From Candidatus Woesebacteria bacterium (GTDB lineage Bacteria > Patescibacteriota > Microgenomatia > UBA8517), in assembly GCA_963716475.1 (NCBI GenBank), contig OY970314.1:628790-692789 (forward strand): a stretch of 64,000 nucleotides of DNA. The letters run 5' to 3'. The notes under the pieces are model-generated. The model saw only the letters and a program-made list of their open reading frames with translations, had not been told where the DNA came from and made no database searches. Below are positions 9,061 through 25,387 of the stretch, piece after piece (position 1 is the stretch's first letter; every line of letters starts with the position of its first letter). The position numbers and the translations under genes are program-made.

Positions 9061-9095
9061 TAATCAGGAACGAAATTCTGAAGAACCAGGGTTAA
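9061..9095 (+). pseudogene. relic 3' end of a paralogue of gene 8045..8515 (..KEKDQKFLIRNEILKNQG*)
   Basis: 35-bp direct repeat of 8481..8515 (2 mismatches), in-frame C-terminal peptide preserved, stop upstream. Confidence 0.5.
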
Positions 9096-10047: not shown

Positions 10048-11871
10048 TCATTTTCTCTTTAAAAAGCCGAACTCCGGCTGAGTTGGTGTACCGACTAAAA
10101 GTGCCCTATCTAAAAATTTATTAAACACTTCACAGCTTGTCTCAGGCAAAAGAGCACACGCGTAACAGGCTGACATATTTAGCGATTCAAAACCCTGACC
10201 GCTGCTCTCGATACATAATGGGTCGTTTGCGCACCACCCTGATGTCTCAGCCATAGATTCCAAGACAGAGGCAAACCTTTCAGGATTAGCTTGTCTTACA
10301 AGTCCGCCTAAAGTGCCATCGGCGTCACCTTCAGCTGTATAAATTAACACACCTTGCATTTTGTTCTCATCTCCAGAGGAATCACAATATATTCGTTCGC
10401 GCAATGAGGCACCAGAATATCCCGATTCGAAACTTAATTGCCTAATTAGTAAGTGGCTGAAAGTATGAAGTAAAACGTATTTTGCTGTAACGGGTTTAAA
10501 ATTTATCTTACGTCTCTTACAGGAAATTTCGTAATTTTTGTTCATCTGTTCAATTCTCTTGATTACAAATTTGTTTTCAGCCCACGATTTTATTTTCTTA
10601 GAATCCAATGCAATAAATATTCCTTCACCCCGAACTTCTACAGCCGGCTTCCAAGTTGCGGGGTGGTTTGGTCTGTCTGTTAATGAGACTAATTCGGAAA
10701 CGTCATGTTCCTCGCCTTCTATAAGTTCTGTATCAGTTTCTTGAGGTCTGAGTCTAGTAAATCCTACGAGAGCCCTTATTTCCCTTAAAGAGCGTACAAG
10801 GAAAATATTTTCGATGCCATAATGAGCATAATCCTCACTCGTTTTTGCCGACACGACGTCAAAATCATATTTATTACTAGATGATGTGTCAAATTTTCCA
10901 TGAAATGCCTGGTATTCATCAAAACGATAATCTTCCTCAGTTTGAGTACCGGAGGATTCTAATAATTCACTCATCTGATTAACACATTTTTTAACTTCAT
11001 CAAAACTTCGGCCAATCTGTTTTGCTATCTCCTCTAAAAATTTATTTTTTATTGTTTGGTCATTTTCTAAAATACCCTCTGCGGTTGTAAGGGCTCGCCA
11101 ATAATCGGTTTCTTGTATGCTTTCAAATAAAGTATCTGTATACGGTGGAATCGTTATTGAGCTTGCAATTCGCGGAAAATAAACGTTACTACCTCCACGT
11201 TGGACGGTAACAATTCTTTCTCCGCATTTCTCTGTATTATTTTCTTTAGACCACGGCATGGCACCCCTGCAGGTATCAGTGAAAATATCGGGGTCGAAGG
11301 CTCCTTGCATTGAACGCGGTTTCGCATCACACTGCATGCATCTTATTTTGGAACCAGAAAGCCCTGCGCCAGCAAGACTTGTGTCGTACTTCAGTGTCGG
11401 ATCCGGACTGCAACCTTCTCCGCGGTGTACCCACCAAACCCAAGGGAAATCGTCAAGGTGACCTTTTCTGCAAGCCACCAGAAAGCTCATCGGAACCAAT
11501 CCTTTTCTGCATATATTACAACGCGGTTGTGTAAGAAATTTTCGTGTATCGTTTATTGTCCATTTCTCGTAAGTTTTTAATAAACGGCACTTGGGACAAA
11601 AAAGCCACCGCGGAAACCTACGGTATGGGAGTCCCTTTGGAAATTCTTCAGATGAAGGAGGCTGACGAAAATATTTTACATTCAGTTGTTTCTGTAATCG
11701 CTCGTCCCGAAGGATGTCTTTATTTCCAGTATTAGGCCAGGAGTCAATCCCCATAGCTATAAAGGTGCCTTGTTCCAAATTGATAAGCGCGCCTGGACCA
11801 AAAGTGGTAATCATTTGTCCCCGCCTAATTTTTGGGCGGGAATCATTTTTATATTTAAAATAATTAATCAT
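10048..11871 (-). CDS. drmB: DUF1998-domain protein, DrmB-like (DISARM)
   Basis: 607 aa; Cys clusters 'FCPKCR','CNICRKG...ACRKGHLDDFPW'; C-terminal 'LLHTFSHLLIRQ...GDADGTLGG...CYACALLPETSC' DUF1998 signature; 8-nt overlap with upstream helicase. Confidence 0.7.
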   Translation of the reverse strand: MINYFKYKNDSRPKIRRGQMITTFGPGALINLEQGTFIAMGIDSWPNTGNKDILRDERLQKQLNVKYFRQPPSSEEFPKGLPYRRFPRWLFCPKCRLLKTYEKWTINDTRKFLTQPRCNICRKGLVPMSFLVACRKGHLDDFPWVWWVHRGEGCSPDPTLKYDTSLAGAGLSGSKIRCMQCDAKPRSMQGAFDPDIFTDTCRGAMPWSKENNTEKCGERIVTVQRGGSNVYFPRIASSITIPPYTDTLFESIQETDYWRALTTAEGILENDQTIKNKFLEEIAKQIGRSFDEVKKCVNQMSELLESSGTQTEEDYRFDEYQAFHGKFDTSSSNKYDFDVVSAKTSEDYAHYGIENIFLVRSLREIRALVGFTRLRPQETDTELIEGEEHDVSELVSLTDRPNHPATWKPAVEVRGEGIFIALDSKKIKSWAENKFVIKRIEQMNKNYEISCKRRKINFKPVTAKYVLLHTFSHLLIRQLSFESGYSGASLRERIYCDSSGDENKMQGVLIYTAEGDADGTLGGLVRQANPERFASVLESMAETSGWCANDPLCIESSGQGFESLNMSACYACALLPETSCEVFNKFLDRALLVGTPTQPEFGFLKRK

Positions 11872-14800
11872 CTTTTATATCAATATTACATTCGGCATCT
11901 ACGTTTCTCATGGAGGTTGGGAATACCCAAAGACCTTTACCAGAATCCCCGGCCCTTCGTGCTATTGGGTTTCCTGCTTTGTCGTTTTTATAAACAACTT
12001 TTCCTTCATTTTCCTTTATAAAATTTTCCCATTGACTGACCAACATCTCGAATTCCTCGAGTGTCGCATCAGCCTCTGTACTGTCTACATCCTTCACTCT
12101 TTGAATAATATAATTCCGTAATTCTGTTATTTTTGGTAATTCGGGCTTGAATAAGGCGGCACCACCTTCCTCTTCAAAATTTAAACCCAACCCGTGACGA
12201 AACATTGCCACAATAACCGCACTTAACGCACGTGCCCTAGCGGGGGCAGAGAAGGGGGTAACACTTGAAGGCTCAACACTTCTGTAGAATGTTTCGTGGT
12301 ATGTTCGAAAACGTTCGTAATGGGCACGGTCTCTAGTCCTTGCAGAATTGTAAAGGGTAATTACTAATCCGGGAAAACGTCTACCTATTCGGCTTGATAC
12401 CTGAATATACTCCGAGGTAAGTTTTGGCTGTCCGCGAATTACCATTAAATCAAGCCTATCTATATCAACACCCACGGACAACATGTTTGTGGCGGCAAGT
12501 ACGTCAATGGCGTTTCTATCAGGGAACGTTACGGATAACTGTTCGAGAATTTCAGGTATTTCTTCGGCACGCTTTCTACTTGTTAATTCTTTTGGTACAG
12601 CAATGTCACGCATAAAGCCACCATACCTCTGTTTTAATACATTCGCATATAAGGGGATATCGTCAGTCAAAAGGGATATAAACCCTCCTAGTTCACGGAT
12701 ACTGTTGAAGTAGTTTACGATTGTCCAATATTTATCTTTTACTTCATCATCTTCCTCAATTGTAAATACAGAATGTAGTAACTCAGCGGTGAGCCGAACG
12801 GCAGCCGTTGTTTGTGTTTTGCCCGAAGGCATAATTCCGAGATACAACCTTCCCAGTTTAATATTAAGCGGCACTTCCTTTGAAAAAAATGAATCGTTAA
12901 TATCAACTCCGGGGGATGGAAATTGCCTTGTCTCTCTATCAAAAAGATTCTTACACTGGTCTGCAGCGCGTCTTATTGTTGCAGTAGATGCTACAATTTT
13001 TGGCCGTACTCCTTTTCTTGAACAAAGAAAGTCAATCACAGTCTCATAAAGTCCAACCATAGTTCCCAATGCCCCTGAAATTAAGTGCAATTCGTCCTGA
13101 ATGATAAGTTCCGGGGGCAGGTTGGGATTATCGTTGTCGGATGCAAATACTCTTGATATACCTTTTTGTAGAGGCATTTGGGCAAACTTATCGACAGTCC
13201 CAAATAACAAAGTGGAGGGATCTCTGTAAATTTCTTCATCAACAATAAGTACTGGAAGTCTTTGATGAAAGGCACAAGTCTTTTCAAGACAAAAAAGATT
13301 GGCTTGTTTAGATTTACTTTTATATCCGCATACTCTATTTCCGTTCGCTTGCTCTATAACTGTTTTAGTTCCACACCAGGGGCACGAAAGTATAGGCGAT
13401 GGATTTTTGTCAGTTTCACCAAAAATAAATTCCTGAAAACCTTTCTCTGCCATCTCCAAACTATTAGGAGTTGAATCTATTCCGACCCAAAGTCCGACTG
13501 ATATCTCCTCGCTTCCCAACTTTCCATTACTGTCTTGTCTGATTTTTTCCATAGCACATATTAGAGTGCATGCTCTCTGAAATTGTTGCGCGGTGAGCAA
13601 ACGCAATGTATATCTCATTATTACGGCTGTACCTCCGGATTCGTTTGGATATTTAAGTCGTCGATAAAAAATTGTGAATGATGAAAGACCAAGATACGCC
13701 TCAGTTTTACCTCCACCCGTGGGAAACCAAATTAAATCAACGATCTCTCTATCCTTGGATTTGTGTTCGGTAATGCCTTTTAATGAAAGCAGGAGGAATG
13801 CTAATTGAAAAGGTCTCCAGCTACGTCTTCCAGTCTTCTCAGATAGATAATCTGGCCATTCTATAGTGCCTTCTCCGGGAGATCTCTTTTGCTTTTGGAG
13901 TTCTGAATGGAGCGATTGCATCAACATGGCCTTATTGGCCAATTGGAAGGATTCCATCACAAGATTGTCAGCGTCAAGCAACCGAACCCCTTCAATCATT
14001 CTAGAGCAAGATTCCTCACACAGCGCAATGTGTTTGTCGACAGTATTAGAGAAATTAGTCGGCAAATTGGTGTTTTCTCTAAGACTGCTTATCCATTGTT
14101 TGTATAAATTACAAAAGATATTAAGTTTGTCTATTATTTCCCCCTTCTTAAGGGTTCCGGTTCCCGAAAGCTCCCTCATGCTAAGTATTAAAGGGTCCAA
14201 ACCCGGTACATCAAAATCGGTTTTTGGAACTTCGAATGCTGGAATAGTCTCTGTATAAACGGAGGATGAATTAATAGCGCCCTCATCACGTGTCCAATTT
14301 GCAGAGCACCCATGTCCGACTGCATAGGTTTTTCTATTTCTATACAAAAGAGCTAAAGACAGTTCTTCCTCATCGTGTTTAAACAATGGAACTGAGGAGT
14401 ACTCTGCAAATATTTCCTTTTGATCACTCGCTGAAGTGACAATCATCGAAACATTAAAAAATACATGTTCCTCGTCCATTCCAACGTGGCCGACCTGATT
14501 TGTATTTTTAAGGGCAAGTGTGAAAAGGGTTAAATTACCCTTATCATCATGTCTTCTTTCACACACCAGTTCTAGGCCCTCCGTTACTCTTTGAGATTTA
14601 AAATCAGCTTTAATAGTTAGATCCGCCGTATCTCCAAGACTTTGCCACTCACCCTGGGATTGCCTGACCGCTTTATAGAGTTGGGGAATAAAATCCTTTT
14701 CATTAGATTTTTCAGATATTTGTTTAGGTATCCCGTAATCGACAACCCCGCGAGTAGACAACTTTCCTTCAGTGAACTCAAAATTTTCTTTAAATTCTTC

Positions 14801-15232
14801 CAAGTCTGCAATGGATTCCGGGATTTTATCAACCTCAACATAATGCTCCCCTGTTTCTAATTTTTGATAAGTCGTCCAGTTAACTTTAACTTTTAAGTTA
14901 GGGCTATTTCCCAAACAGTAAAAGCTTATTCCCATTACGCTGGGAAAGAATGAATTAGCAGATCCCTTATCCGAATCTATAATTTCGCCACCCCCTGTTG
15001 TATCAGCATTATCCTGCTCGTTTACATCACTTTCTTCCGCGATATCTCTACGAGATTCGTAAAGATTTGGGAAAATCATCCCAGCGGAGTACCTGGTGAC
15101 GGGATTTTCCGTAATTCTTTCTTTTCCACTTGCCGGGCCGATAAACTCTGAAAAAACACCATCAACGATACGTGAACGTTCGGTTGCGTAACGATTTTCT
15201 TTTTCATCCATATTCATTGTTTCATTTAACAA
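11864..15232 (-). CDS. drmA: DEAD/DEAH-box SF2 helicase with ~480-aa N-terminal domain, DrmA-like (DISARM)
   Basis: 1122 aa; motif I 'FPTGGGKTEAY', motif II 'IIQDELHLI', motif III 'STATI', motif VI 'QVSSRIGRR'; immediately upstream of DUF1998 gene. Confidence 0.7.
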   Translation of the reverse strand: MLNETMNMDEKENRYATERSRIVDGVFSEFIGPASGKERITENPVTRYSAGMIFPNLYESRRDIAEESDVNEQDNADTTGGGEIIDSDKGSANSFFPSVMGISFYCLGNSPNLKVKVNWTTYQKLETGEHYVEVDKIPESIADLEEFKENFEFTEGKLSTRGVVDYGIPKQISEKSNEKDFIPQLYKAVRQSQGEWQSLGDTADLTIKADFKSQRVTEGLELVCERRHDDKGNLTLFTLALKNTNQVGHVGMDEEHVFFNVSMIVTSASDQKEIFAEYSSVPLFKHDEEELSLALLYRNRKTYAVGHGCSANWTRDEGAINSSSVYTETIPAFEVPKTDFDVPGLDPLILSMRELSGTGTLKKGEIIDKLNIFCNLYKQWISSLRENTNLPTNFSNTVDKHIALCEESCSRMIEGVRLLDADNLVMESFQLANKAMLMQSLHSELQKQKRSPGEGTIEWPDYLSEKTGRRSWRPFQLAFLLLSLKGITEHKSKDREIVDLIWFPTGGGKTEAYLGLSSFTIFYRRLKYPNESGGTAVIMRYTLRLLTAQQFQRACTLICAMEKIRQDSNGKLGSEEISVGLWVGIDSTPNSLEMAEKGFQEFIFGETDKNPSPILSCPWCGTKTVIEQANGNRVCGYKSKSKQANLFCLEKTCAFHQRLPVLIVDEEIYRDPSTLLFGTVDKFAQMPLQKGISRVFASDNDNPNLPPELIIQDELHLISGALGTMVGLYETVIDFLCSRKGVRPKIVASTATIRRAADQCKNLFDRETRQFPSPGVDINDSFFSKEVPLNIKLGRLYLGIMPSGKTQTTAAVRLTAELLHSVFTIEEDDEVKDKYWTIVNYFNSIRELGGFISLLTDDIPLYANVLKQRYGGFMRDIAVPKELTSRKRAEEIPEILEQLSVTFPDRNAIDVLAATNMLSVGVDIDRLDLMVIRGQPKLTSEYIQVSSRIGRRFPGLVITLYNSARTRDRAHYERFRTYHETFYRSVEPSSVTPFSAPARARALSAVIVAMFRHGLGLNFEEEGGAALFKPELPKITELRNYIIQRVKDVDSTEADATLEEFEMLVSQWENFIKENEGKVVYKNDKAGNPIARRAGDSGKGLWVFPTSMRNVDAECNIDIKDD

Positions 15233-16955
15233 AACTGTTGAGTCTATTCTGATACTCAGTTTTTAATTTTTTATCCATAAAAACATATAACTTGTCCTTA
15301 GCCCTCGTCATCGCAACATAATTCGCAGATTCAGAAAACCTTCCAGAAAAAGAATCAACGTCGATATACACAATAATATTATTTTCGAGCCCTTTGAACA
15401 TTTGTGCTGAGGCATACAAAACTTTATCTTTCGGCGGGTTCGAAATGTTTTCCTCATTTGCCTCAGTTACAAAGCGTGGAACCTTCACCCCTGATGTGTA
15501 CAGTGACATTGAACCAGTATTCCTGCTAGTAAGTAAGGTTATAGAAGACGGGGGTACTTCTTCCACGGTAACCAATTTGTTTATTAACTCAACAACCTTC
15601 AGTGCCATATCTTCATCTCCGTTGCATAGATTAAATTCAACTTTGGGGCCCTCAACTCTTGGTTTGCCTGCTGGGAAACCTGAAACAATCGAGGCTTGGG
15701 TCGCTATCTGCAAAGTGTTTCTGACATTTAGGTCAAGTCTATATTCTGGCGCTCCTATACTTTTTAGATAAGTGTAAGATTCGCTACTAAAGCGGTTAAA
15801 AAGTCTTGCTTGTCCGCCGGGATCTAAGAAAATAGCCCAGTTTCCTTCTTTTAGACCATGTTTTAATACGGAGTCTAGAGCAAGTAGGTAATTTTCACTC
15901 AAAAGGTCCTGTGCTTCGTCAATAATCAACCAATCAAATTTTTCCTGGACTGTTTTCTCAGCAGCGTTCATGAATACTGATGGCAGTATTTCGTTATAAA
16001 TCTCATCGGAGGTCTTTCCCAAACTTCTTTTGTCTAGTTCCTTTTCGAACCCAGCTTTTTTAATAACCCCCAAAAAATATCTGTTTATAGAGTTGACCTG
16101 CAGATATGAACTGTCGAGATCGACCGACGAAATCTCATTTCGCAAACAAACCCCTAACAGTTTGTTAAAACATAAGAGAAGGGTTTTTTGCTTGTTAAAA
16201 AATAATCTTCTTGTCTTCTCGACAGCTAATAATGTTTTGCCGGTTCCAGCAGCCCCTGTGAACAATGTTCTTGGGTTTCCCTCCATCTGATCTAATGCCC
16301 TATATTGTTCCTTAGTAAAACTGATTATTTGGTCTTCAGCCCTTACGATATCGCTCCATAAGCGTGTACCTGATTCAAAATCACCTCTTAAATAATCAAC
16401 AATATTAGATTTGGGGATCGGTATCTGCCTTGAAGCCAGATGCGTTTTCCTTTTCCAATAATCAGATAGTCTTTCAACATACTTACTTATAGGACTCGAT
16501 AAGCCATGTACATCGTAGACTATTTCCTTATCCCATTCAGGAGATTCTTCATTAAACTCTATATCTGGAAAAAGAACCCCGTATCCAAAAATGTACCCAT
16601 GATTTTGCCCAAATTTCGATTCTAGGTCACTTTTTAGTGAATACATACCCGAAGAAGCTTGTGCAAAAGGACCTTCCACCTTTTTGTTTTCCTGTCCATA
16701 GCGGTCTTCAAAAATCCATATACCGTCTTTACGGGAAACCCGGCCACCCTTAACTTCCAGGGAAAGTATTAATCCTTTCCCAATCAGAACAAAATCGATT
16801 TCTCCCTGCCTTTTTTGTAGATGTCTGGATAGACCTAAAGAATGTAGACATGTAAATTCTGTAAGATCATCCAGATTATTTAACAATGTAAAAATTTTCC
16901 TCTCGGCATTACTTTTAACATCGGGGTTGATGTAGGACGGAATCATTTTTGCCAT
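15222..16955 (-). CDS. NERD-domain nuclease fused to UvrD/PcrA-like SF1 helicase
   Basis: 577 aa; N-term 'GEIDFVLIGKGLILSLEVKGG' (NERD); 'FTGAAGTGKTLLAV' (Walker A), 'LIIDEAQDLL', C-term 'YVAMTRAKDKLYV' (motif VI). Confidence 0.7.
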   Translation of the reverse strand: MAKMIPSYINPDVKSNAERKIFTLLNNLDDLTEFTCLHSLGLSRHLQKRQGEIDFVLIGKGLILSLEVKGGRVSRKDGIWIFEDRYGQENKKVEGPFAQASSGMYSLKSDLESKFGQNHGYIFGYGVLFPDIEFNEESPEWDKEIVYDVHGLSSPISKYVERLSDYWKRKTHLASRQIPIPKSNIVDYLRGDFESGTRLWSDIVRAEDQIISFTKEQYRALDQMEGNPRTLFTGAAGTGKTLLAVEKTRRLFFNKQKTLLLCFNKLLGVCLRNEISSVDLDSSYLQVNSINRYFLGVIKKAGFEKELDKRSLGKTSDEIYNEILPSVFMNAAEKTVQEKFDWLIIDEAQDLLSENYLLALDSVLKHGLKEGNWAIFLDPGGQARLFNRFSSESYTYLKSIGAPEYRLDLNVRNTLQIATQASIVSGFPAGKPRVEGPKVEFNLCNGDEDMALKVVELINKLVTVEEVPPSSITLLTSRNTGSMSLYTSGVKVPRFVTEANEENISNPPKDKVLYASAQMFKGLENNIIVYIDVDSFSGRFSESANYVAMTRAKDKLYVFMDKKLKTEYQNRLNSFVK

Positions 16956-16957
16956 TA

Positions 16958-19609
16958 TTAGATATTATCAGTTGCCATTAGTTTATTGATTACATCGAAT
17001 GGCACCATTACTTCCTCATCAGATATCTTAGAAACTCTTGCTATCCGGACTTGGGAAGACATTTCGTCAAGTTTATCACGCAATACAGGGTCGTCGATTA
17101 TGCTTTCCGGGGATATGTAGGATTGGGTTATTTTTTTGGCTAAATAACGGCCAATCTTGATTCGTAGAGCATGTATCTTTCTTGTAGCATCCTTCACTTC
17201 CCTTAAATGTGTGTTCAATTCTTTGTTATTTGTCATTCTCGCAATTTTATCAATCGGAGTGTAGTTGTTTTCAGTAGGGCCGATTGTCCCACCCGCAAGC
17301 CAGTTGTTAATTGTTGCCGGATGTCTTTCCACGCCTGCCCTGTCCAGATATACTTTAAGCTGGTCCTGATTCAAATTATTCTCATTGCAGTATGTGATTA
17401 AAGCCGTTCTCCACAACTCTGACATTTTAATCAGGTTAACTATTTCCGGTTTGTGTTCATAAAACTCTACAAGTTCATCGAAAACGGTACCTTTTGCGCT
17501 TAAAAACGCAATTTCATCTCCTTCCAATAATTCACTAATGGTTTTGGTGACAATCTTTTCATTTTTTAAATCCAGTACCCTTATGTTCGTGCCAGGTTGA
17601 AAAAATGAATGTCTGTTGTCAGAAAACAAAACTAGGCGTGCTTTGAATAATTCCGAACGGCCACCGTAGGTATTGGTCGCAGATTTTATCAATGCCGTAG
17701 ACAAAACGCTGTCAATATCAAAAACCTCTTCGTTATCAATTCCATCAGTCTTCTGCTGCGGTAAAGCCTCAAGATTGTTATTTAATACTTGATCAGGAAC
17801 TTTTAAGATACCGGAGCGGTAGGTAAGGCTAGTATATTGACTTAATAAACGCCTTGTCATGTCGAAGGACCGCTCGAGCTCCTGTTTTTGTAACGGGTAC
17901 ACCAAAAGGTAGTTCTTTCCTACACGGGGTTCCAGCATCAGTAAATTCTTTGCCGACGGTTTAAATGTCCATATTATGATATCGTAGCCACCAACAGCTT
18001 CCGTGATGCTATCTGTATAACCCACGCTTGGTACTAACCATCCGTATTCGGCTTTTTCTATTTCTGGGGTAACTAAATTTCTGATAGCATCAATTGTTTG
18101 TGGATATTTTGTGAGGATACACACCCTCCTGTCTTTATTTTCAACAACCAACGCCTCTGCCTGAACGGACTTGGCATAATGTTCCTTAAATTTAGTTACT
18201 GAGTCATCCAAAAGCGAGACGAGTTCTGCCGCGTCGTGGTCAAAATTTTCCGGTACTGCACTCAACCTGAGTGTTTCTATACTATCCCGCAGCAATTTAA
18301 TATCCTCTTCAAGCGTTTTTCCACCAATACCTTGTGCCATCTCGTCAAGCTTGGACACGGAAAGCGGGGATTGGAATATTTTATTCGCTACCCCCGCAGC
18401 ACGAACAGAAAAAAGCAGCAAATCATTATTGTTGTACTCGTTACTCTTGGAAAACATTCCGTGAAGGAGCATTTGAATCTTTTTGTGTGATTCTAGGGAA
18501 ATACCCTGCGGATAGGGTATTTCAACAAAGACATCTTCATAGGCTGCAAGTTTGGGCACTACATTGTTATGCTTGTTAACTAACCCGGAATATTCACTGT
18601 TAGCCGACCCGGTATTGCTTTGACCGGGATTCGTAAATCCGGTCAATCCCTTAAAATCGTTAACATCCCAAATCCATATTTTAAACCCCAGACCCTTTTC
18701 AAGCTTTTCTATCAAGTCCAGCTGACTGTAAGACTGTAGCCAGTAAATATCCTCAATACTGTATTGATTCCTGATTGAAGCTGCCAAACTTATATCACGC
18801 AATGCTTTTCCCTGGGCATCAACAAATAACGTTTTAACCAGGGGTTCTGATTCCAGAACATCGTCCGCTATCGATAAACCCGAAACAAAATAAAACATGT
18901 ATGCCATTTTCCTAACGTCCCTGCTAAGACTTATCCGGTTCCCTTTCGTACATTTCATTGACGGAAATATCTCAAAGAAAGGCTTTCCGTTTAATTCGAT
19001 ATTTTTTAAGATGTTGATTAAATGCGGTCTTTCACTCGATACCAAAAAAGCAGGGTAGCCGGATAGCCCAACCTGCTGACCCTGAAATCCTAAAAGCAAT
19101 CGTAGTACATCCTTTGCGTCTTTTTTCGTTTTATCCGGCTCGTAGGCGTCGGGTATAGTTTTAATGCCGGAATACTTCGATACCGAAGAGAAAAAGTGCA
19201 GCGGTATTGACTCATACGTGTTGTATTTATCGCTATAGCCAAGCCGGAATTTACCTATTTTAGTTGCCGGGTCGGTCGAAACACCTCCGTATTTGGCTAT
19301 CCTACCGTCAAACTCAACAAGTTCGCCGACTTTAAAATCGTTTAGTCTAAGTTTTGAATTCTTAATAATTGCTCCTTTGTAAGCAACAAGCCCCATTATT
19401 ATTAGAAGGTAAACATCAAGCAGGTCATCACCGGGGTGATAAATAGCAATACTATTCTTTGTCTCATCCAATACGTTATTGTGAACTATTAACGCGTTAA
19501 GCATCTCATAGCCTCCGATAGACAAAGGGCTGCCGGCGAGAGAAAGTCGTAATGCCCGAAGCTCCGAGATATCGTCTTTTATGTAATTAATGATTCTGTC
19601 GTTGAACAT
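16958..19609 (-). CDS. large protein of unknown function (candidate DrmE-like defense component)
   Basis: 883 aa, no recognisable catalytic motif except a relaxed P-loop-like 'AQGIGGKT'; translationally coupled between MTase and NERD-helicase. Confidence 0.5.
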   Translation of the reverse strand: MFNDRIINYIKDDISELRALRLSLAGSPLSIGGYEMLNALIVHNNVLDETKNSIAIYHPGDDLLDVYLLIIMGLVAYKGAIIKNSKLRLNDFKVGELVEFDGRIAKYGGVSTDPATKIGKFRLGYSDKYNTYESIPLHFFSSVSKYSGIKTIPDAYEPDKTKKDAKDVLRLLLGFQGQQVGLSGYPAFLVSSERPHLINILKNIELNGKPFFEIFPSMKCTKGNRISLSRDVRKMAYMFYFVSGLSIADDVLESEPLVKTLFVDAQGKALRDISLAASIRNQYSIEDIYWLQSYSQLDLIEKLEKGLGFKIWIWDVNDFKGLTGFTNPGQSNTGSANSEYSGLVNKHNNVVPKLAAYEDVFVEIPYPQGISLESHKKIQMLLHGMFSKSNEYNNNDLLLFSVRAAGVANKIFQSPLSVSKLDEMAQGIGGKTLEEDIKLLRDSIETLRLSAVPENFDHDAAELVSLLDDSVTKFKEHYAKSVQAEALVVENKDRRVCILTKYPQTIDAIRNLVTPEIEKAEYGWLVPSVGYTDSITEAVGGYDIIIWTFKPSAKNLLMLEPRVGKNYLLVYPLQKQELERSFDMTRRLLSQYTSLTYRSGILKVPDQVLNNNLEALPQQKTDGIDNEEVFDIDSVLSTALIKSATNTYGGRSELFKARLVLFSDNRHSFFQPGTNIRVLDLKNEKIVTKTISELLEGDEIAFLSAKGTVFDELVEFYEHKPEIVNLIKMSELWRTALITYCNENNLNQDQLKVYLDRAGVERHPATINNWLAGGTIGPTENNYTPIDKIARMTNNKELNTHLREVKDATRKIHALRIKIGRYLAKKITQSYISPESIIDDPVLRDKLDEMSSQVRIARVSKISDEEVMVPFDVINKLMATDNI

Positions 19610-20770
19610 TTACTCTTTCAAATGAAGATTTATAAATTTATTAACAGATTTTGCTACACCAACAGCGGCTTTGTACGGAACGCCGTTCCCAATTGCCTTG
19701 AACATTTCTGACAAAGTCATCGTATCCGGCAGGACAAATTGTCTGGGTAATGACTGCAGGGAAAGAGCCTCAGCCACTGACAGTCTCCGGGCTTCATAGG
19801 GATGAAGGTGAACCTCGTTATTACCATATGCAACGGTGGGAGAATATTTCCAGCGGTGCAATCTTTTAAATGATTTTTTCGAAACGTCGCCTTCCTTTGT
19901 ATCCCTAAAACGAAGAAGCGCTTGCCGGGGTTTAAAATAATGTTTGGAATTTGGATGAGTTAGTACCCGGTTTTTATTAAACCAGTACTCTACGGTAGTA
20001 TCCTCCGGAATACTTTTCGGTCTTTTTTTCATCGACCCATCATAAAGGTGCTCAACTTTTTTGTATTTACTAAATATTTCCTCCCGTGGGTACTTAACAA
20101 AGTCATTCCAGGGAAATGCCTTCGAATTAAGAAGATGTCCGTCTTTCGGGTCGAGGATTTTATTAGGTATCAGTTTATTATCAAATCCGATAAGAATAAT
20201 CCTGTCCCTGTCTTGTGGTACACCATATTCAATGGCATTAATAAGCCTCTCGGTTATAACATATCCTTCTTTTTGCAATTTTTTCTTTAATTCTTCATAA
20301 AAAAGTCTGTGACTTTTGGTTCTCCACATACCCTTTACGTTCTCAAACAAAAAGAAGTCCGGTTTCTGCTGGCTAATTAAAGTGGTGTATATTGCCGAGA
20401 GTTTTCCATGTTTTCCACATCGGCCTTTATTTTTACCCGCTACGGAAAAATCAGGGCAAGGGGGTCCACCAATAAATCCGACGAGTGAACCTTTTTCCCT
20501 GGCATCCTTAACAAAACCTGATAGTCTTTTCTTCCACAACCCTTTTGTAAGCTCCTTCATGTCCCCTTCGTGGTACCCGTATCTGGGAGCGGGAAGCTTC
20601 ATTTTGACGCGGGCAGTTTTATACGCACCAAGAAAAGAAGAGTTCAGCTCGTTAACAAAAGCTATATCGAAACCGCTGCTTTCAAAACCTAAATCTAAAA
20701 AACCTACACCGGCGAAAAAGGAGAATATTAAATTTTTACTTTTTTCCCCAGAGGCTAAAACTTGTATCAT
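19610..20770 (-). CDS. dcm: DNA (cytosine-5)-methyltransferase (DrmMII-like)
   Basis: motif I 'FFAGVGFLDLGF', motif IV 'GGPPCPDFS', motif VI 'FLFENVKGM', motif X 'AIGNGVPYKAA'. Confidence 0.85.
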   Translation of the reverse strand: MIQVLASGEKSKNLIFSFFAGVGFLDLGFESSGFDIAFVNELNSSFLGAYKTARVKMKLPAPRYGYHEGDMKELTKGLWKKRLSGFVKDAREKGSLVGFIGGPPCPDFSVAGKNKGRCGKHGKLSAIYTTLISQQKPDFFLFENVKGMWRTKSHRLFYEELKKKLQKEGYVITERLINAIEYGVPQDRDRIILIGFDNKLIPNKILDPKDGHLLNSKAFPWNDFVKYPREEIFSKYKKVEHLYDGSMKKRPKSIPEDTTVEYWFNKNRVLTHPNSKHYFKPRQALLRFRDTKEGDVSKKSFKRLHRWKYSPTVAYGNNEVHLHPYEARRLSVAEALSLQSLPRQFVLPDTMTLSEMFKAIGNGVPYKAAVGVAKSVNKFINLHLKE

Positions 20771-20843
20771 CCTGCCTATATGTTATCACTTTTACTACAT
20801 AATCAGTTAAGATCGGAGGAACGAATTTTGTCACACTCCGGGC

Positions 20844-21248
20844 TTACCCTTGACTTATCAGAAGCCTAAATAACCTGTTAATTGCTCTATCTGGGTTTCG
20901 AACTATGTCATTGCCCCAAAAATTAATAATATGCCAGCCCTCTTTACGAAGCGTTCTTTGAACCAGCCTGTCTCGTTTAATATTATTTCCGATTTTTTTA
21001 ATCCAATATTCAGGGGTGGCATTCTTCTTGGTTAAATAATTTTTACCATGCCAAAATTCTCCGTTGATAAATACGGCGACTTTATATTCAGGAAAGGCTA
21101 TGTCAGGTTTCCCTATAACTGGATAATGTTTCTTAAACTTGCAGCCGATTTTTTCCAGCAATTGAAACATTAGCTTCTCAGGTTTTGTATTTTCTGACCT
21201 AATCCGCGACATGTTATAACTTCTTTGTTCCTTAGTTTTTATATCCAT
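20844..21248 (-). CDS. vsr: very-short-patch-repair endonuclease Vsr
   Basis: 'YNMSRIRSENTKPE...GKPDIAFPEYKVAVFINGEFWHG' canonical Vsr; directly upstream of dcm. Confidence 0.8.
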   Translation of the reverse strand: MDIKTKEQRSYNMSRIRSENTKPEKLMFQLLEKIGCKFKKHYPVIGKPDIAFPEYKVAVFINGEFWHGKNYLTKKNATPEYWIKKIGNNIKRDRLVQRTLRKEGWHIINFWGNDIVRNPDRAINRLFRLLISQG

Positions 21249-21292: not shown

Positions 21293-21712
21293 CTAGTCAA
21301 CCGTTCCCTGCTGTTTTTGAGTCTCGTAATGGCATTTTTCGCCGTTACTTAACCCTACAATCGTCAGCTGTACGAAAAACTGTTTCCAAGTCTTTCCGTT
21401 TGCGAGGAGCACGATCTCACCATTTACCGTCTTAACGCCTTCCCACCTGTCATCGTATTTTTTTACTACCACCGTGTTATCGGGACCGTACTTATTTTTA
21501 TAGACCAAGCTTCTCTCATTTACTCCTTTCTTGTACGTTTCCGTGTCCGGTTCGTAAAGAGCAGTCGCAGACATGTGAACACCTTTAACTGCAAAAAAGT
21601 TTGCAAAAAGGATATTCAGCGGAAAATCGGATAGCTCGGGCCTTCCATCCACTTCAAGTTTATTCGGAATAAAACCGAATCTTTGGAGCGGGTTTGCATT
21701 TGTTTCTATCAT
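21293..21712 (-). CDS. hypothetical protein
   Basis: 139 aa ORF. Confidence 0.4.
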   Translation of the reverse strand: MIETNANPLQRFGFIPNKLEVDGRPELSDFPLNILFANFFAVKGVHMSATALYEPDTETYKKGVNERSLVYKNKYGPDNTVVVKKYDDRWEGVKTVNGEIVLLANGKTWKQFFVQLTIVGLSNGEKCHYETQKQQGTVD

Positions 21713-21732
21713 CTTTTATCACCTCCCTTCCA

Positions 21733-21761
21733 ACAAAAAAACCTCTCCGAAAGAGAGGTCA
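21733..21761 (-). terminator. rho-independent terminator (minus strand: gaCCTCTCtttcgGAGAGGttttttt)
   Basis: 6-bp GC-rich stem, 5-nt loop, T7 run on minus strand; downstream of 21911..22249. Confidence 0.4.
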
Positions 21762-21910: not shown

Positions 21911-22249
21911 TTATAACACAGGTAGAGTGGGAAAAACTTCTTTTACAAACTTATCTGCAAAAGCTTTCATAATTTTATTCCCATTCATATCGGTGCTGTG
22001 ATATAAAACGGTTTTTGGCCAAAATCGGCGTGTCTTATTCTGAACACACAAATCCGCAAGATATTTCATAACATCATCCCCTAATTTCGTGTGATTGAGG
22101 TGAAAATCAAAATCCATACTTTCAATAAATAAGTCTTCCTTCTGAAGCATTATTTCCGCCACTTTCTCTACCCCTTCAATATTTTTGAGGTTAATCCAGC
22201 CTTCCGGAGCTTGCCTCATGTCATCCAGCCAGATTTTTATTGCAGCCAT
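21911..22249 (-). CDS. hypothetical protein
   Basis: 112 aa ORF. Confidence 0.4.
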   Translation of the reverse strand: MAAIKIWLDDMRQAPEGWINLKNIEGVEKVAEIMLQKEDLFIESMDFDFHLNHTKLGDDVMKYLADLCVQNKTRRFWPKTVLYHSTDMNGNKIMKAFADKFVKEVFPTLPVL

Positions 22250-22298
22250 TTTCTGTTAATCGACAAATTAGTTTGTATAAGCGTAACTTGGCATCTTG

Positions 22299-23360
22299 CT
22301 AGTTGTAAAACCAGTCCCAGCCGGGGTTTTCGACAACCTTAATATTGGAACTTTGAAGTTTCAGATTGTTCCCCACTATCCAATAACCTTCGAAATATTT
22401 ATTCATAGTTGTCCCTTCCACCCAGTCTAATGATTGCAGTTTGATATTAATTTTATTTTCGTTTTTCGCGTCGGGTGAGGCTGATATTAGGTAAACCTGG
22501 AGAGTTGTGGCATAACCCTGAATCCACGAATCGAAAGTCTGGGTTTGGCGCATCGGGTCCATCTGGTCATAAGCTTTTCTTAGATCGCGGGCACCGATAT
22601 AAGTATAGAAGGCGTTAACAACCCCGAGAGGGTTTGTGGTGTCGATCTTAATTTTTGCAACTTGCTCATCGGAAAGTCCCAGTATTGAATTTTGAACGGA
22701 AGCGATATCAATAAATTCGGAAAGCCCCGCAACACCCATTGTGTTTACACCTATTACCTCCCCGCATGCATTAACAAGAGGACCTCCGCTCATTCCGGAA
22801 ATTACCGTGGCATCGGTTTTGATATATGAACCCTTGAAAGTATTATCATAAATTGTTCCGGTGTAGGAACCTTTATTGATGATTACTCCCCCTTTAAGTT
22901 CCGATCCAAATGCGTAACCCACAGCATAAACCGGCTCGCCAAAAACCGGATTGGGGGCACTTCCCAATGTTCCAAAATAACCGTAAAAAGGAAGCGGGGT
23001 AAGCTTACGATTTATTTTCAAAACGGCCATATCCTTGGTTTTGTCACCTCGGATGCTTACGGGAGTTTCGATACTACCGTCCGGGAAAACAACTTTAGGG
23101 GTCGCGTCGCCGTCAATTACGTGGAAGTTGGTGAAAATTTCATTTTCCGAAACAGGAAACCCTGACCCTTCTCCCAAACTTCCTTCTATGCGTACTACCT
23201 TCTCGTTCATAGTTTTTTGAATTTCGGCCTGCGAACATTTCAAAAGTTTGGTTCCACCGAAACGTTTTTCCACATTGGAAAGCCGGATGTTGAGATAACC
23301 GATATAGGCGAGAACAGCGGCAATGAGGATAAACTTCAGGAGCTTCATTATGCGTTTCAC
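22299..23360 (-). CDS. secreted trypsin-like (S1) serine protease with C-terminal extra domain
   Basis: N-terminal TM/signal; 'TNFHVIDG' (His), 'DMAVLKI' (Asp), 'GMSGGPLV' (Ser) catalytic triad context. Confidence 0.65.
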   Translation of the reverse strand: MKRIMKLLKFILIAAVLAYIGYLNIRLSNVEKRFGGTKLLKCSQAEIQKTMNEKVVRIEGSLGEGSGFPVSENEIFTNFHVIDGDATPKVVFPDGSIETPVSIRGDKTKDMAVLKINRKLTPLPFYGYFGTLGSAPNPVFGEPVYAVGYAFGSELKGGVIINKGSYTGTIYDNTFKGSYIKTDATVISGMSGGPLVNACGEVIGVNTMGVAGLSEFIDIASVQNSILGLSDEQVAKIKIDTTNPLGVVNAFYTYIGARDLRKAYDQMDPMRQTQTFDSWIQGYATTLQVYLISASPDAKNENKINIKLQSLDWVEGTTMNKYFEGYWIVGNNLKLQSSNIKVVENPGWDWFYN

Positions 23361-23444: not shown

Positions 23445-23996
23445 TCAGGGCATAAAGAAGTAATTGTACTCATCAAAGGTAAAGTGGCCGGAGGGACGAT
23501 TTAATAAAATATCTGCAATCTGCCAGGCATCCATATCCTCGGAAATCCTGTACTCAGCGTTTTTGTCTATCGTTCTGCCTTTATCAACAACGATTGCATT
23601 TTCGCCTGGTGTCACGTCCTTGGTGTGCTCCAAAGCGTAGCGGAAACCGCTTTCATCCCTGATAAAACCGTAATATTTGAGGTTACTGACCAAAGCGTCC
23701 AAAGTTGTAGCGGCGCCGATTCTAAGATCCACCGTTCCGTCAACGCCGGGTTTTGACCTGATGCCGGAAGCTTCCTCAGGGGTCATTCTTAAATTGGCAA
23801 TAAAATAATCTTCAACTTTTTTTGGAGAACTCCATCCCCTTCCGGGTGCCAGAAAATCATCCCGGTCGGGTTCGTGTTCCCCTAGGAAAACAAAAAATCC
23901 GATTAATAAAAGTAAAATAATTCCGCCGATTACATAAGGGCGCTTCCTTAATATTTTCTTCATTACCTTAGATTTTATCACAGCAGTGTCAGTCAT
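23445..23996 (-). CDS. membrane-anchored hypothetical protein
   Basis: 183 aa, single N-terminal TM. Confidence 0.4.
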   Translation of the reverse strand: MTDTAVIKSKVMKKILRKRPYVIGGIILLLLIGFFVFLGEHEPDRDDFLAPGRGWSSPKKVEDYFIANLRMTPEEASGIRSKPGVDGTVDLRIGAATTLDALVSNLKYYGFIRDESGFRYALEHTKDVTPGENAIVVDKGRTIDKNAEYRISEDMDAWQIADILLNRPSGHFTFDEYNYFFMP

Positions 23997-24067
23997 ACTG
24001 CCTATTTCTTTGCTTGCCTAAGAAGACACTTCAATACTTCTTTGCTTCTCCAATGAAACAATATATC

Positions 24068-24097
24068 AAATATTCTTTGCTCGTCCAAAGAATATTT
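24068..24097. promoter_or_regulatory. 30-bp perfect inverted repeat AAATATTCTTTG-n6-CAAAGAATATTT
   Basis: 12-bp arms, 6-bp spacer, ~70 bp upstream of 23445..23996 start; two further TCTTTGCT half-site-like repeats at ~24008 and ~24040. Confidence 0.35.
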
Positions 24098-24285
24098 GGA
24101 AAGAAAAGACGCCACGTGGCCTTTTAACCAGTCATTCCGTTCGCTCATTCATACAAAAGAACTTCTTCGCGTCAAGCGCTCGTCAGACAACTTTTGTTAT
24201 TAATTGAATTCGCTCTCTTCACTTCAGGCTAAAAAGCCAGAGTGGATTTAGGGGGACATGTTGCTAAAAATTTCAGGTGGGTGGT

Positions 24286-24456
24286 TTAAGAGGATTTGCG
24301 GGCTTCGCGCATTTTCAAATATTCGTATCCCGCGATACCGAGAAGTGCAAAGCCTGCGGGAACACTTACTACTGAGGCCACAACTCCGGCTGCCAGAAAT
24401 ACGTTCATTCTGGTTTTGTACATTTTTACTTCCTTGCCTTCGTGTTCCTGTGTCAT
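24286..24456 (-). CDS. unlisted 56-aa small membrane protein (MTQEHEGKEVKMYKTRMNVFLAAGVVASVVSVPAGFALLGIAGYEYLKMREARKSS)
   Basis: ATGA start/stop overlap with upstream gene 24453..24701; one clear TM helix; below the ORF-track length cutoff. Confidence 0.3.
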   Translation of the reverse strand: MTQEHEGKEVKMYKTRMNVFLAAGVVASVVSVPAGFALLGIAGYEYLKMREARKSS

Positions 24457-24701
24457 GACGATATTTTCCTATCCTTATACAAAATTTCTCTTTTTATATA
24501 AAAACCTTCGGTACCGTCGGGTAAAATTTTCGGGCCCGCGGAGATTCTGGGTTGTTGGCCGCTAGGAAATCTTCCCCAATACCAATCTTTGAAACCCTCT
24601 CTGACTAATTCCAATGCCTCAGGAATGGCACTAAGTTTGCCATTATTATCGCGGTGAGGAGCTTCAATAAAAACCTCCTCTATGGTTTCCTTATTCAACA
24701 T
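24453..24701 (-). CDS. hypothetical protein
   Basis: 82 aa; TACAAT 8 nt upstream of ATG. Confidence 0.4.
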   Translation of the reverse strand: MLNKETIEEVFIEAPHRDNNGKLSAIPEALELVREGFKDWYWGRFPSGQQPRISAGPKILPDGTEGFYIKREILYKDRKISS

Positions 24702-24770
24702 TTGAAGCTATTGTAGCACTTTATGGAGTTATCTTAAGCCCTTGTTCGTAAATACAGCGAACTTGGAGCA

Positions 24771-25334
24771 TTAGTGTTTTGAAAAGAATCTGCCGATTTG
24801 CGATCCCATTTGTTCAAACTTTTCCCTTCTCTTTTCGGAATTAACTTTTTTGCGAAGGTCCGACCTTATACCTTTGACAAACGGCTCATCCCTTTCTTCC
24901 AAAAAGGGAAGTGCAGGTTTGCCAATACTTACTACCGTTTCGGCAACAATCTGACAGGACCACAGGCTGTCCGACCGACTTTCCGAACAGTTTCTCATCG
25001 CCTGGGCTTCTTTACCCATGGAGTAGTATTCATGCGCACTTGATTCATAATAAATACCCTTATTTACAAGTTCCGCAACAATTAAGGGCATTGTTTCCGG
25101 TTGTTCTTTAGCCAGTTTCCAAATCTCCTCCTGCGCGGCTTTGGTTTTATTCAAAGATTCCTGATCAATCGCTTCATAGGACATATCATCGGGCGGCACA
25201 TTCCCGTAAGTTTTGGGCGGTTCACCGTCCCGGTATTTTGTACACCTTCTGACCTCCAACCTGCCTACAAGATCGCAAATAACCACGGACATTAATTCGT
25301 TACCTTTCGCAGCCGGACTGTTATCAATTTCCAT
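24771..25334 (-). CDS. hypothetical protein
   Basis: 187 aa; same GCTATTGTAGCACTT promoter motif as 24453..24701. Confidence 0.45.
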   Translation of the reverse strand: MEIDNSPAAKGNELMSVVICDLVGRLEVRRCTKYRDGEPPKTYGNVPPDDMSYEAIDQESLNKTKAAQEEIWKLAKEQPETMPLIVAELVNKGIYYESSAHEYYSMGKEAQAMRNCSESRSDSLWSCQIVAETVVSIGKPALPFLEERDEPFVKGIRSDLRKKVNSEKRREKFEQMGSQIGRFFSKH

Positions 25335-25387
25335 TTGGGGCTATTGTAGCACTTCCTTAATTGACTTTTTGGATTTAATTGAAAACT

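What the first reader, a model, noticed from the sequence alone, without database searches (positions are those of the whole stretch)
16958..19609. 883-aa operon-embedded protein with no recognisable domains (DrmE-like placeholder?)
It sits between the m5C MTase and the NERD-helicase with a 0-2 nt spacing on both sides, so it is almost certainly co-expressed and part of the system. I see no Walker B, nuclease or methylase motifs. There is only a relaxed P-loop-like 'AQGIGGKT'. Class-2 DISARM DrmE is likewise a large protein of unknown function. This protein could be DrmE-like or a new component such as a specificity or sensor subunit.
Basis: inference. Interest (0 to 1): 0.6.

Follow-up and report, generated by a model that had tools for sequence, protein, structure and literature searches.

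The report
DrmE-family subunit of DISARM defence operon
The 883-residue protein is a member of the already catalogued DrmE family, the essential but unexplained subunit of class 2 DISARM anti-phage systems; structure prediction suggests it is a helicase look-alike that has lost its ATP-burning motifs.

Summary
The ORF is real: 16958..19609, minus strand, 883 aa, 0 nt from the m5C methylase gene and 2 nt from the NERD-helicase gene. The claim of no recognisable domains no longer holds. The protein matches NCBIfam NF038316 "DrmE family protein" end to end (265 bits, cut-off 80) and Pfam DrmE_C (54 bits, cut-off 27). It misses the model for canonical Bacillus-type DrmE (54 bits, cut-off 250). In all 14 distinct related loci with downstream DNA the gene heads a drmA-drmB cassette. 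In 10 of them a NERD/SF1 helicase sits between DrmE and DrmA, as here. No PLD nuclease (DrmC) gene was found in the operon or by a motif scan of the window.

Two AlphaFold2 models (best pLDDT 83, pTM 0.71) match almost only SF2 helicases: RIG-I, Hef, XPF, XPB, Dicer, Mfd and Snf2. None of 140 family members has a Walker A at the expected site.

My best reading is that DrmE is a non-catalytic, DNA-binding pseudo-helicase adaptor or sensor for DrmAB and the NERD helicase-nuclease. Family identity is secure. The mechanism is inferred. DrmE is the fastest-diverging subunit.

The parts
16958..19609 (-). DrmE-family protein, 883 aa (the finding)
   Evidence: ORF. NCBIfam NF038316 265.5 bits against cut-off 80, aa 29-877. 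Pfam DrmE_C. PADLOC DrmE. 15 full-length homologues.
18632..19462 (-). aa 50-326: predicted RecA1-like domain with a beta-rich insert (aa 93-146). The motif I site reads I-x-H-P-G-D (aa 54-61, no GKT). The motif II site reads LFVDA (D264).
   Evidence: Secondary structure of the AF2 model. Foldseek hits are to SF2 helicases. Motif columns.
17780..18544 (-). aa 356-610: predicted RecA2-like domain interrupted by an all-helical insertion (aa 372-492, nt 18134-18496). This is the most variable part of the protein. It carries the conserved 'YPLQK' (aa 571-575).
   Evidence: 35-36% identity here against 56-62% in RecA1 and the C-terminal domain. for YPLQK.
18314..18337 (-). 'AQGIGGKT' (aa 425-432): not a P-loop
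   Evidence: It lies between helices of the insertion domain. It is not conserved in A1. A relaxed Walker A pattern matches at this alignment position only in this protein (both database copies, P0001 and P0165) and, as 'AFISEGKS', in P0013.
17123..17641 (-). aa 657-829: DrmE_C domain, a five-strand beta barrel (aa 654-703) followed by a helical part carrying W733 and W770 (invariant in A2) and P778 (>=90% conserved)
   Evidence: Pfam PF24957 54.3 bits. Conservation in A2. Secondary structure. A Tudor-domain hit, 6yhz, over 74 columns.
19610..20770 (-). C5-cytosine DNA methyltransferase (DrmMII-type role)
   Evidence: PF00145 9.4e-50. TIGR00675. PADLOC MTase_II 1.2e-154, DrmMII 1.8e-31.
20844..21248 (-). 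Vsr very-short-patch repair endonuclease, companion of the m5C methylase
   Evidence: PF03852 1.2e-24. TIGR00632 119 bits against cut-off 97.85. Also present beside the MTase in L001, L002, L005, L008 and L021.
15222..16955 (-). NERD (PD-(D/E)xK) + SF1 helicase fusion, 577 aa, with intact motifs; no PLD nuclease DrmC accompanies it in this operon
   Evidence: PF08378 NERD, ResIII, UvrD_C_2. PADLOC RTasNERD-Hel 1.1e-52. Motifs GAAGTGKT at 234, DEAQ at 346 and D54...E67-V-K69. Conserved immediately after DrmE in 10 of 14 loci.
11864..15232 (-). DrmA (short form), SF2 helicase
   Evidence: NF038325 DISARM_DrmAS 981 bits against cut-off 950. PADLOC DrmA 6e-233.
10048..11871 (-). DrmB (DUF1998/MZB)
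   Evidence: NF038324 497 bits against cut-off 240. PADLOC DrmB 5e-90. PF09369.

Best explanation
The ORF encodes the DrmE-family subunit of a class-2-type DISARM restriction-modification-associated defence operon: Vsr, m5C methylase, DrmE, NERD/SF1 helicase-nuclease, DrmA, DrmB.

Shown here: family membership, and conserved gene order with drmA/drmB.

Predicted here: DrmE has the fold of an SF2 helicase, namely two RecA-like domains, a helical bundle inserted at the start of the second as in RIG-I/Hef/XPF/Dicer, and a C-terminal DrmE_C domain made of a small beta barrel plus a helical part. It has none of the ATP-binding or hydrolysis motifs.

Inferred: DrmE does not burn ATP. It acts as a DNA-binding pseudo-helicase, comparable to the dead helicase-like domain of XPF. 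It recognises incoming DNA (an end, fork or unmodified stretch) and couples or licenses the DrmAB motor and, in this variant, the NERD helicase-nuclease effector. The methylase marks self DNA, and Vsr repairs the T:G mismatches that 5mC deamination causes.

The confidence figure covers the whole statement. Identity as a DrmE-family DISARM subunit is about 0.95, the SF2-like dead-helicase fold about 0.7, and the adaptor/sensor role about 0.4.
For: Family: NF038316 265.5 bits against 80, full length. PF24957. PADLOC DrmE. All 51 diverse relatives in A2 hit NF038316.

Context: DrmA (NF038325, above cut-off) and DrmB (NF038324) are in the same tightly packed operon. In 14 distinct related loci with downstream DNA, DrmE is followed by NERD-helicase then DrmA-DrmB (10 loci) or directly by DrmA-DrmB (4 loci). 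An m5C methylase is present in every locus with enough flank.

Fold: two independent AF2 runs (pLDDT 75/pTM 0.55, and pLDDT 83/pTM 0.71). Both give almost exclusively SF2 helicases against PDB. Hits include RIG-I E 2.4e-7 prob 1.00 over ~670 columns, Hef TM 0.44, XPF, XPB, Dicer, Mfd and Chd1. The viral library BFVD also returned only SF2 helicases among its named top hits. The beta-loop-helix at aa 54-62 and the strand ending in D264 sit where motifs I and II would be.

Loss of catalysis: 0 of 140 full-length relatives have GxGK[ST] at the motif I site (consensus hhhhHPxG/D). The motif II Asp is present in only 19 of 51.

Literature: deleting drmE abolishes class 2 DISARM defence and its function is unknown (10.1101/2021.12.28.474362, citing Ofir 2018). 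DrmC is dispensable and often absent (PMC9142583).

Fast evolution: DrmE is 41-51% identical between loci where NERD-helicase is 59-70%, DrmA 58-62%, DrmB 58-66% and MTase 64-73%. The variation is concentrated in RecA2 and the helical insertion. This fits a recognition or arms-race surface.
Confidence: 0.55

Rival explanations
1. DrmE belongs functionally to the modification side. It reads the methylation state or the target motif, and directs or restrains the m5C methylase (a specificity or regulatory subunit) rather than working with the helicases.
For: In the window it is translationally abutted to the methylase gene (0 nt). Every sampled locus has an m5C methylase. The variable RecA2/insertion region could carry specificity. 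The short class 2 DrmA (NF038325 'DrmAS') lacks the N-terminal EVE-like modified-base reader described for class 1 DrmA (10.1101/2025.09.15.676423), so some other subunit may read modification.
Against: The methylase moves around: upstream in the window and L001-L003, at the far end in L008/L009 and L022, and separated or on the other strand in L012 and L014. DrmE always sits directly 5' of the helicase genes. C5 methylases of this type carry their own target-recognition domain (general knowledge). This rival overlaps with the main explanation rather than excluding it.
Confidence: 0.2
2. DrmE is an active motor or NTPase with non-canonical motifs, a functional counterpart of the SNF2 helicase DrmD of class 1 DISARM.
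For: The fold hits include Snf2, Chd1, RapA and Mfd. DrmE holds the 5'-proximal operon position that DrmD holds in class 1 (10.1101/2021.12.28.474362). D264 at the motif II site is invariant in the close clade.
Against: No Walker A lysine or threonine in any of 140 relatives. The motif II Asp is not conserved family-wide. No motif VI arginines; the site reads YPLQK. PADLOC DrmD models did not match.
Confidence: 0.07
3. The helicase-like fold is a prediction or search artefact, and the N-terminal 600 residues are a novel fold of unknown activity.
For: TM-scores are low, there is no sequence-level support, and several segments have moderate pLDDT.
Against: Two models from alignments of different depth and two structure libraries (three searches) return the same superfamily almost exclusively, at probability 0.99-1.00 over 450-800 aligned columns. 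A generic alpha/beta artefact would give mixed families.
Confidence: 0.12
4. The gene is an unrelated or housekeeping gene that merely sits inside the operon.
For: None found.
Against: Curated DrmE-family hits. Synteny with drmA/drmB is conserved down to 17-24% identity. No homologue was found away from drmAB in any locus sampled.
Confidence: 0.01

Closest known systems
DrmE of class 2 DISARM (Bacillus paralicheniformis type; NCBIfam NF038323, PADLOC PDLC02635)
   Same: Same operon role and position, 5' of drmA-drmB and alongside an m5C methylase. Similar size (785-790 against 883 aa). The C-terminal ~230 aa are homologous (NF038323 7.4e-15, PADLOC 1.4e-11, Pfam DrmE_C). Function is unknown, but it is essential in the Bacillus system.
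   Different: It scores 54 bits against the equivalog cut-off of 250, and the N-terminal ~600 aa do not align to that model. This operon has a NERD/SF1 helicase and no PLD DrmC. I could not align it directly to the B. paralicheniformis protein, because no canonical sequence was retrievable.
NCBIfam NF038316 'DrmE family protein'
   Same: Full-length match (aa 29-877 to profile 8-837 of 838, 265.5 bits). All 61 relatives tested belong to it.
   Different: None at family level. The window protein belongs to a small, mostly metagenomic sub-clade: 16 clusters at >=41% identity, including Gottesmanbacteria and WWE3 MAGs.
XPF/Hef/FANCM and RIG-I/Dicer group of SF2 helicases
   Same: Predicted two-RecA core with a helical insertion domain. 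These are the best structural matches. The XPF helicase-like domain sets a precedent for a catalytically dead SF2 module used for DNA or protein binding (general knowledge).
   Different: No detectable sequence homology. DrmE has an extra beta-rich insert in RecA1 and its own DrmE_C domain. It has no nuclease, CARD or RNase III modules. This is a resemblance of fold, not membership.
DrmD (SNF2-like helicase) of class 1 DISARM
   Same: An accessory SF2-fold protein encoded 5' of drmABC in the sister class. Snf2-type structures are among the fold hits.
   Different: DrmD has intact ATPase motifs (pfam00176). DrmE has none. No PADLOC DrmD hit.

Membership tests
DrmE family (NCBIfam NF038316) | Whole-protein score at or above the curated cut-off (80 bits) with end-to-end coverage | tested here: met
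   265.5 bits, E 1.1e-78, aa 29-877 against profile 8-837/838
DrmE family (Pfam DrmE_C, PF24957) | C-terminal domain at or above the gathering score (27 bits) | tested here: met
   54.3 bits, aa 657-829
Canonical DISARM DrmE (NCBIfam equivalog NF038323) | Score at or above 250 bits | tested here: not met
   54.1 bits, C-terminal aa 639-866 only. None of 61 relatives tested reaches it.
DrmE family | Encoded next to drmA and drmB | tested here: met
   The window operon. In 12 of 12 related loci long enough to show it, drmA follows; 2 more contigs end inside the NERD-helicase gene.
Class 2 DISARM system | DrmA helicase present | tested here: met
   NF038325 981 bits against cut-off 950
Class 2 DISARM system | DrmB (DUF1998/MZB) present | tested here: met
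   NF038324 497 bits against cut-off 240
Class 2 DISARM system | C5-cytosine methylase DrmMII present | tested here: met
   PF00145 170 bits. PADLOC DrmMII models 1.8e-31, although generic type II MTase models score higher.
Class 2 DISARM system | PLD-domain nuclease DrmC present (required by the PADLOC type II definition, PMC9252829) | tested here: not met
   No PLD Pfam hit in any operon gene or in the immediate flanks tested. No HxKxxxxD...G[ST]xN motif in any ORF of 100 aa or more in the window. A NERD/SF1 helicase-nuclease is present instead.
Class 2 DISARM system | Protects against phage; drmE required | not testable with these tools
   Known only for the Bacillus system, from the literature
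Active SF2 helicase | Walker A (motif I, GxGK[ST]) after the first strand of RecA1 | tested here: not met
   The site reads IAIYHPGDD. 0 of 140 relatives have the motif there.
Active SF2 helicase | Walker B (motif II, DExx) and motif VI arginines | tested here: not met
   LFVDAQ. The Asp is present in 19 of 51 relatives, with no acidic second residue. The motif VI site reads YPLQK.
SF2 helicase fold | Two tandem RecA-like domains | tested here: inconclusive

The most novel reading that the evidence does not exclude
DrmE-family proteins are catalytically dead, RIG-I/Hef-like SF2 'pseudo-helicases' that act as the foreign-DNA recognition subunit of class 2 DISARM. The MTase - DrmE - NERD/SF1 helicase-nuclease - DrmA - DrmB layout found here is a distinct, so far undescribed DISARM subtype, in which a PD-(D/E)xK helicase-nuclease replaces the PLD nuclease DrmC as effector.
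Probability: 0.3. Interest if true: 0.6.

Novelty: new member of a known kind. Interest (0 to 1): 0.35.

Why it matters
DrmE is required for class 2 DISARM defence, yet the papers I could search assign it no fold, activity or partner. Calling this ORF a DrmE-family member is routine annotation. Two things found on the way are testable leads. First, the family is predicted to be an SF2 helicase that has lost ATP hydrolysis. That gives concrete experiments: no ATPase activity, binding to DNA ends or forks, and complex formation with DrmAB. Second, a recurrent operon variant carries a NERD/SF1 helicase-nuclease where the dispensable PLD nuclease DrmC is expected. This bears on the open question of how DISARM destroys DNA. 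Both are properties of the family and not of this locus, and both rest on prediction.

Tried and rejected
1. P-loop reading of 'AQGIGGKT': rejected. It lies between helices and is not conserved.
2. Sequence search of PDB with the protein and with the family profile: nothing.
3. Profile-profile comparison of the DrmE family with DrmA, to test shared SF2 ancestry: probability 0.2, no signal.
4. Recurrent weak Pfam hits across 51 members at E<=1: no helicase families. Only sporadic Hint/intein (6 members), DUF6471 (6) and CarD_TRCF_RID (2).
5. A Cro/C1-type helix-turn-helix at aa 748-780 ('AGVxRxxxTIxNWLxGxxIxP'): no support from Pfam scans of isolated segments or from hhalign against four Xre-type proteins. 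It stays a visual resemblance only.
6. Fusion clues from long family members (1016-1182 aa): the N-terminal extensions carry no informative domain.
7. Search for a canonical DrmE among 61 relatives, for direct alignment: all are NF038316 and none is NF038323.
8. A second word-index protein search with the broad alignment returned only the same 16 proteins.
With the close alignment it found only 2 loci, and the metagenome scan found 6.
10. No homologue in the plasmid or phage collections.
12. Window flanking ORFs (139-aa ORF, 23445-26524, 8045-9493, Mrr fragment, cREC): none is conserved in the related loci.
13. Ofir et al. 2018 (PMC5739279) is not held. Its results are cited second-hand.
Full report
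**1. The observation**

- The window has an ATG-started ORF of 883 codons at 16958..19609 on the minus strand.
The methylase stop TAA is followed at once by the ATG of this ORF, with AAAGAG just upstream. Its own TAA is 2 nt from the ATG of the next gene.
- The following genes overlap: 11 nt between the NERD-helicase and DrmA, and 8 nt between DrmA and DrmB. The block reads as one operon.
- 'AQGIGGKT' is at aa 425-432.
- The gene is not a chance ORF. Fifteen full-length homologues share 41-52% identity with it. A profile search of 1.84 billion cluster representatives finds 820 relatives at E<=1e-3, most of them 830-900 aa long.
- The NCBI gene call for the identical protein starts at M36 (848 aa). 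Residues 1-35 are conserved in 13 of 15 homologues, so the longer start is right.

**2. What it is**

The statement 'no recognisable domains' does not hold against current libraries.

| Library model | Result | Region matched |
|---|---|---|
| NCBIfam NF038316 'DrmE family protein' | 265.5 bits (cut-off 80) | aa 29-877 to profile 8-837/838 |
| Pfam PF24957 DrmE_C | 54.3 bits (cut-off 27) | aa 657-829 |
| PADLOC DrmE | E 1.4e-11 | aa 607-866 |
| NCBIfam NF038323, canonical DISARM DrmE equivalog | 54 bits (cut-off 250), not met | C-terminal ~230 aa only |

None of 61 relatives tested reaches the NF038323 cut-off. The protein is therefore a member of a sister family that shares the C-terminal domain with Bacillus-type DrmE.

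The neighbours are:

- DrmA short form (NF038325, 981 bits against 950).
- DrmB (NF038324, 497 against 240).
- A C5 methylase (PF00145).
- Vsr.
- A 577-aa NERD + SF1 helicase fusion with intact GAAGTGKT, DEAQ and D...EVK motifs.

No PLD nuclease (DrmC) is in the operon, and a motif scan of the window's ORFs of 100 aa or more found none.

**3. Context elsewhere**

I collected 14 distinct related loci with DNA downstream of the DrmE homologue.

- In 10 loci the next gene is the NERD/SF1 helicase, followed by DrmA and DrmB where the contig allows. These are L001, L002, L003, L005, L006, L007, L008, L010, L016 and L018, covering DrmE identities from 51% down to 22%.
- In 4 loci DrmE is followed directly by DrmA-DrmB. 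These are L012, L014, L021 and L022, at 17-19% identity.
- An m5C methylase is present in every locus with enough flank, but its position varies: upstream, at the far end, or on the other strand.
- Vsr often accompanies the methylase.
- None of the sampled operons has a PLDc_2 DrmC next to drmB. L012 and L014 have an NgoFVII-type restriction enzyme beside the methylase, and a lone PLDc_2 ORF lies about 9 kb upstream in L001.

The invariant core is therefore DrmE + DrmA + DrmB + m5C methylase.

**4. Fold**

- Two AlphaFold2 runs were made, one from the 16-sequence alignment (pLDDT 75, pTM 0.55) and one from a 51-sequence alignment reaching 16% identity (pLDDT 83.3, pTM 0.71). They give the same secondary-structure map.
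- Foldseek against PDB returns almost only SF2 helicases for both models. Hits include RIG-I (E 2.4e-7, prob 1.00, ~670 aligned columns), the Hef helicase domain (TM 0.42-0.44), the XPF helicase-like domain, XPB, Dicer/DCL1, Mfd, RapA and Chd1/Snf2.
- The named top hits in the viral library BFVD are likewise only SF2/SNF2-like helicases.
- By secondary-structure order, aa ~50-326 form a RecA1-like domain with a beta-rich insert (93-146).
- Strand 358-363 together with 496-610 forms a RecA2-like domain. It is interrupted by an all-helical bundle (372-492).
- From general knowledge, that arrangement is typical of the Hel2i insertion of the RIG-I/Hef/Dicer/XPF group. I could not inspect coordinates, so this topology is inferred.
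- The C-terminal DrmE_C region is a five-strand barrel (654-703; one Tudor-domain hit), followed by helices carrying W733 and W770 (invariant in A2) and the near-invariant P778.

**5. Catalytic motifs**

- At the beta-loop-helix where motif I should be, the protein reads IAIYHPGDD. The family consensus is hhhhHPxG/D, and none of 140 full-length relatives has GxGK[ST] there.
- The strand where motif II should end reads LFVDA. The Asp is invariant in the close clade but present in only 19 of 51 broader relatives.
- The motif VI position reads YPLQK and has no arginines.
- 'AQGIGGKT' lies between two helices of the insertion domain. Among the homologues, only this protein has that string.

If the fold prediction is right, DrmE is a dead helicase.

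**6. Limits of the fold claim**

- Global TM-scores are low (0.2-0.44).
- No sequence method supports the link. hhalign against DrmA gives probability 0.2. There are no recurrent helicase Pfam hits. There is no PDB sequence hit.
- A suspected Cro-like HTH at aa 748-780 received no support.
- The N-terminal extensions of longer family members are uninformative.

**7. Evolutionary rate**

| Subunit | Identity to the window protein, five complete close loci | Identity at greater distance |
|---|---|---|
| DrmE | 41-51% | 22-24% |
| NERD-helicase | 59-70% | about 40% |
| DrmA | 58-62% | about 45% |
| DrmB | 58-66% | about 45% |
| Methylase | 64-73% | not compared |

Within DrmE the RecA2 and helical-insertion region is the most variable (35-36% identity), and RecA1 and the C-terminal domain are the most conserved (56-62%). 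DrmE is the fastest-diverging subunit. This fits a recognition surface under an arms race, but it also fits looser constraint on a non-enzyme.

**8. Mechanism**

- Literature: class 2 DISARM loses all protection when drmA, drmB or drmE is deleted. DrmE has no known function (10.1101/2021.12.28.474362).
- DrmC is dispensable, does not co-purify with DrmAB and is often absent. DrmAB loads on 5'-overhang ssDNA (PMC9142583).
- Class 1 DrmA carries an N-terminal EVE-like reader of modified bases (10.1101/2025.09.15.676423). The DrmA here is the short form.
- My best-supported reading is that DrmE is a non-catalytic SF2-fold DNA-binding subunit. It recognises incoming DNA and couples or licenses DrmAB and, in this variant, the NERD helicase-nuclease. 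The methylase and Vsr take care of self DNA.

Only family membership and synteny are shown. The fold is predicted and the role is inferred.

Rivals:

- A methylation or specificity reader tied to the methylase (0.2). This overlaps with the main reading.
- An unconventional active motor (0.07).
- A fold artefact (0.12).
- An unrelated gene (0.01).

**9. Comparison and novelty**

- The protein is a new member of an already curated family.
- The operon fails one defining feature of class 2 DISARM as PADLOC defines it, namely DrmC (PMC9252829). It is better described as a class-2-like variant with a NERD/SF1 helicase-nuclease.
- I found no description of this variant, or of a fold for DrmE, in the searchable literature. 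Subscription papers, including Ofir 2018, were not available.

**10. Verdict**

It is ordinary as an annotation. The side results, a predicted pseudo-helicase fold and a recurrent NERD-helicase variant, are modestly interesting leads. Interest 0.35.

Noticed in passing
window 15222-16955 (-); L001 12651-14384, L002 12616-14358, L008 6837-8600, L010 12563-14308: A 577-587-aa NERD (PD-(D/E)xK) + SF1 helicase fusion with intact motifs is inserted between DrmE and DrmA in 10 of 14 related loci. No PLD DrmC accompanies it in those operons. Its best PADLOC match is the NERD-helicase associated with defence reverse transcriptases (RTasNERD-Hel, 1.1e-52). It looks like a swappable effector module.
   Followed up: partly
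window 21911-23360 (-); L001 20144-21433, L003 19654-20844, L002 21861-22619: A Trypsin_2 serine protease gene lies beside the system. In the window it has a small cREC_REC-domain gene next to it. Homologues at 32-33% identity lie just after drmB in two related loci (L001, L003), and a third locus (L002) has a Trypsin_2 gene call near the end of the contig. PADLOC matches only the protease part of RT-Protease_XI/LmuA. This may be an accessory or a separate defence gene.
   Followed up: partly
window 9661-10035 (+) and 9092-9493 (-): Directly after drmB there is a 124-aa ORF that matches only the C-terminal third (profile 268-388 of 393) of a methyl-directed Mrr-like restriction enzyme. It is probably a gene remnant. 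A small PD-(D/E)xK/Cas4-like ORF follows it.
   Followed up: partly
window 19505-19609 (-), first 35 codons of the target: The public NCBI gene call for the identical protein (P0001) starts at M36 (848 aa). The upstream 35 residues are conserved in 13 of 15 homologues, and a Logan assembly aa (P0165).
   Followed up: yes
window 20844-21248 (-) against L001 9588-9998, L002 9532-9936, L008 15343-15759, L021 8583-9008: Vsr travels with the m5C methylase but changes place. It is upstream of the methylase in the window, between methylase and DrmE in most close relatives, and after the methylase at the operon end in L008/L009.
   Followed up: partly
L001 3646-8190, L002 1-2708, L003 2847-7443: The closest homologous systems lie next to type IV secretion/conjugation genes (TrbC, T4SS pilin/TrbL, VirB4-like DUF87). 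The named relatives come from candidate-phyla MAGs (Gottesmanbacteria, WWE3). The window's own flanks share nothing with these loci, and the more distant genes tested look like housekeeping genes (tRNA synthetases, ClpB, MscL, MsrB).
   Followed up: partly
L012 10307-12436; L014 21222-22625; L022 945-2897: In distant DrmE-DrmA-DrmB loci the m5C methylase is paired with a type II restriction enzyme gene (NgoFVII-type in L012 and L014, EcoO109I-type in L022). There DISARM genes sit against a complete classical R-M pair.
   Followed up: no
L021 858-6956: A DUF1156 protein and a HEPN_Swt1/DUF499 protein lie immediately upstream of the MTase-Vsr-DrmE-DrmA-DrmB block. This is probably another defence module in the same island.
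   Followed up: no
window 21293-21760 (-): An unknown 139-aa ORF with no Pfam hit and no counterpart in related loci lies upstream of Vsr. It is preceded by a strong terminator-like hairpin (21760-21740). That hairpin may mark the 5' boundary of the transcription unit.
   Followed up: partly
window 13866-14258 (+), 15394-15771 (+), 20316-20810 (+): ORFs of 125-164 aa lie antisense to DrmA, the NERD-helicase and the methylase. They sit wholly or largely inside well-supported genes and are most likely shadow ORFs.
   Followed up: no
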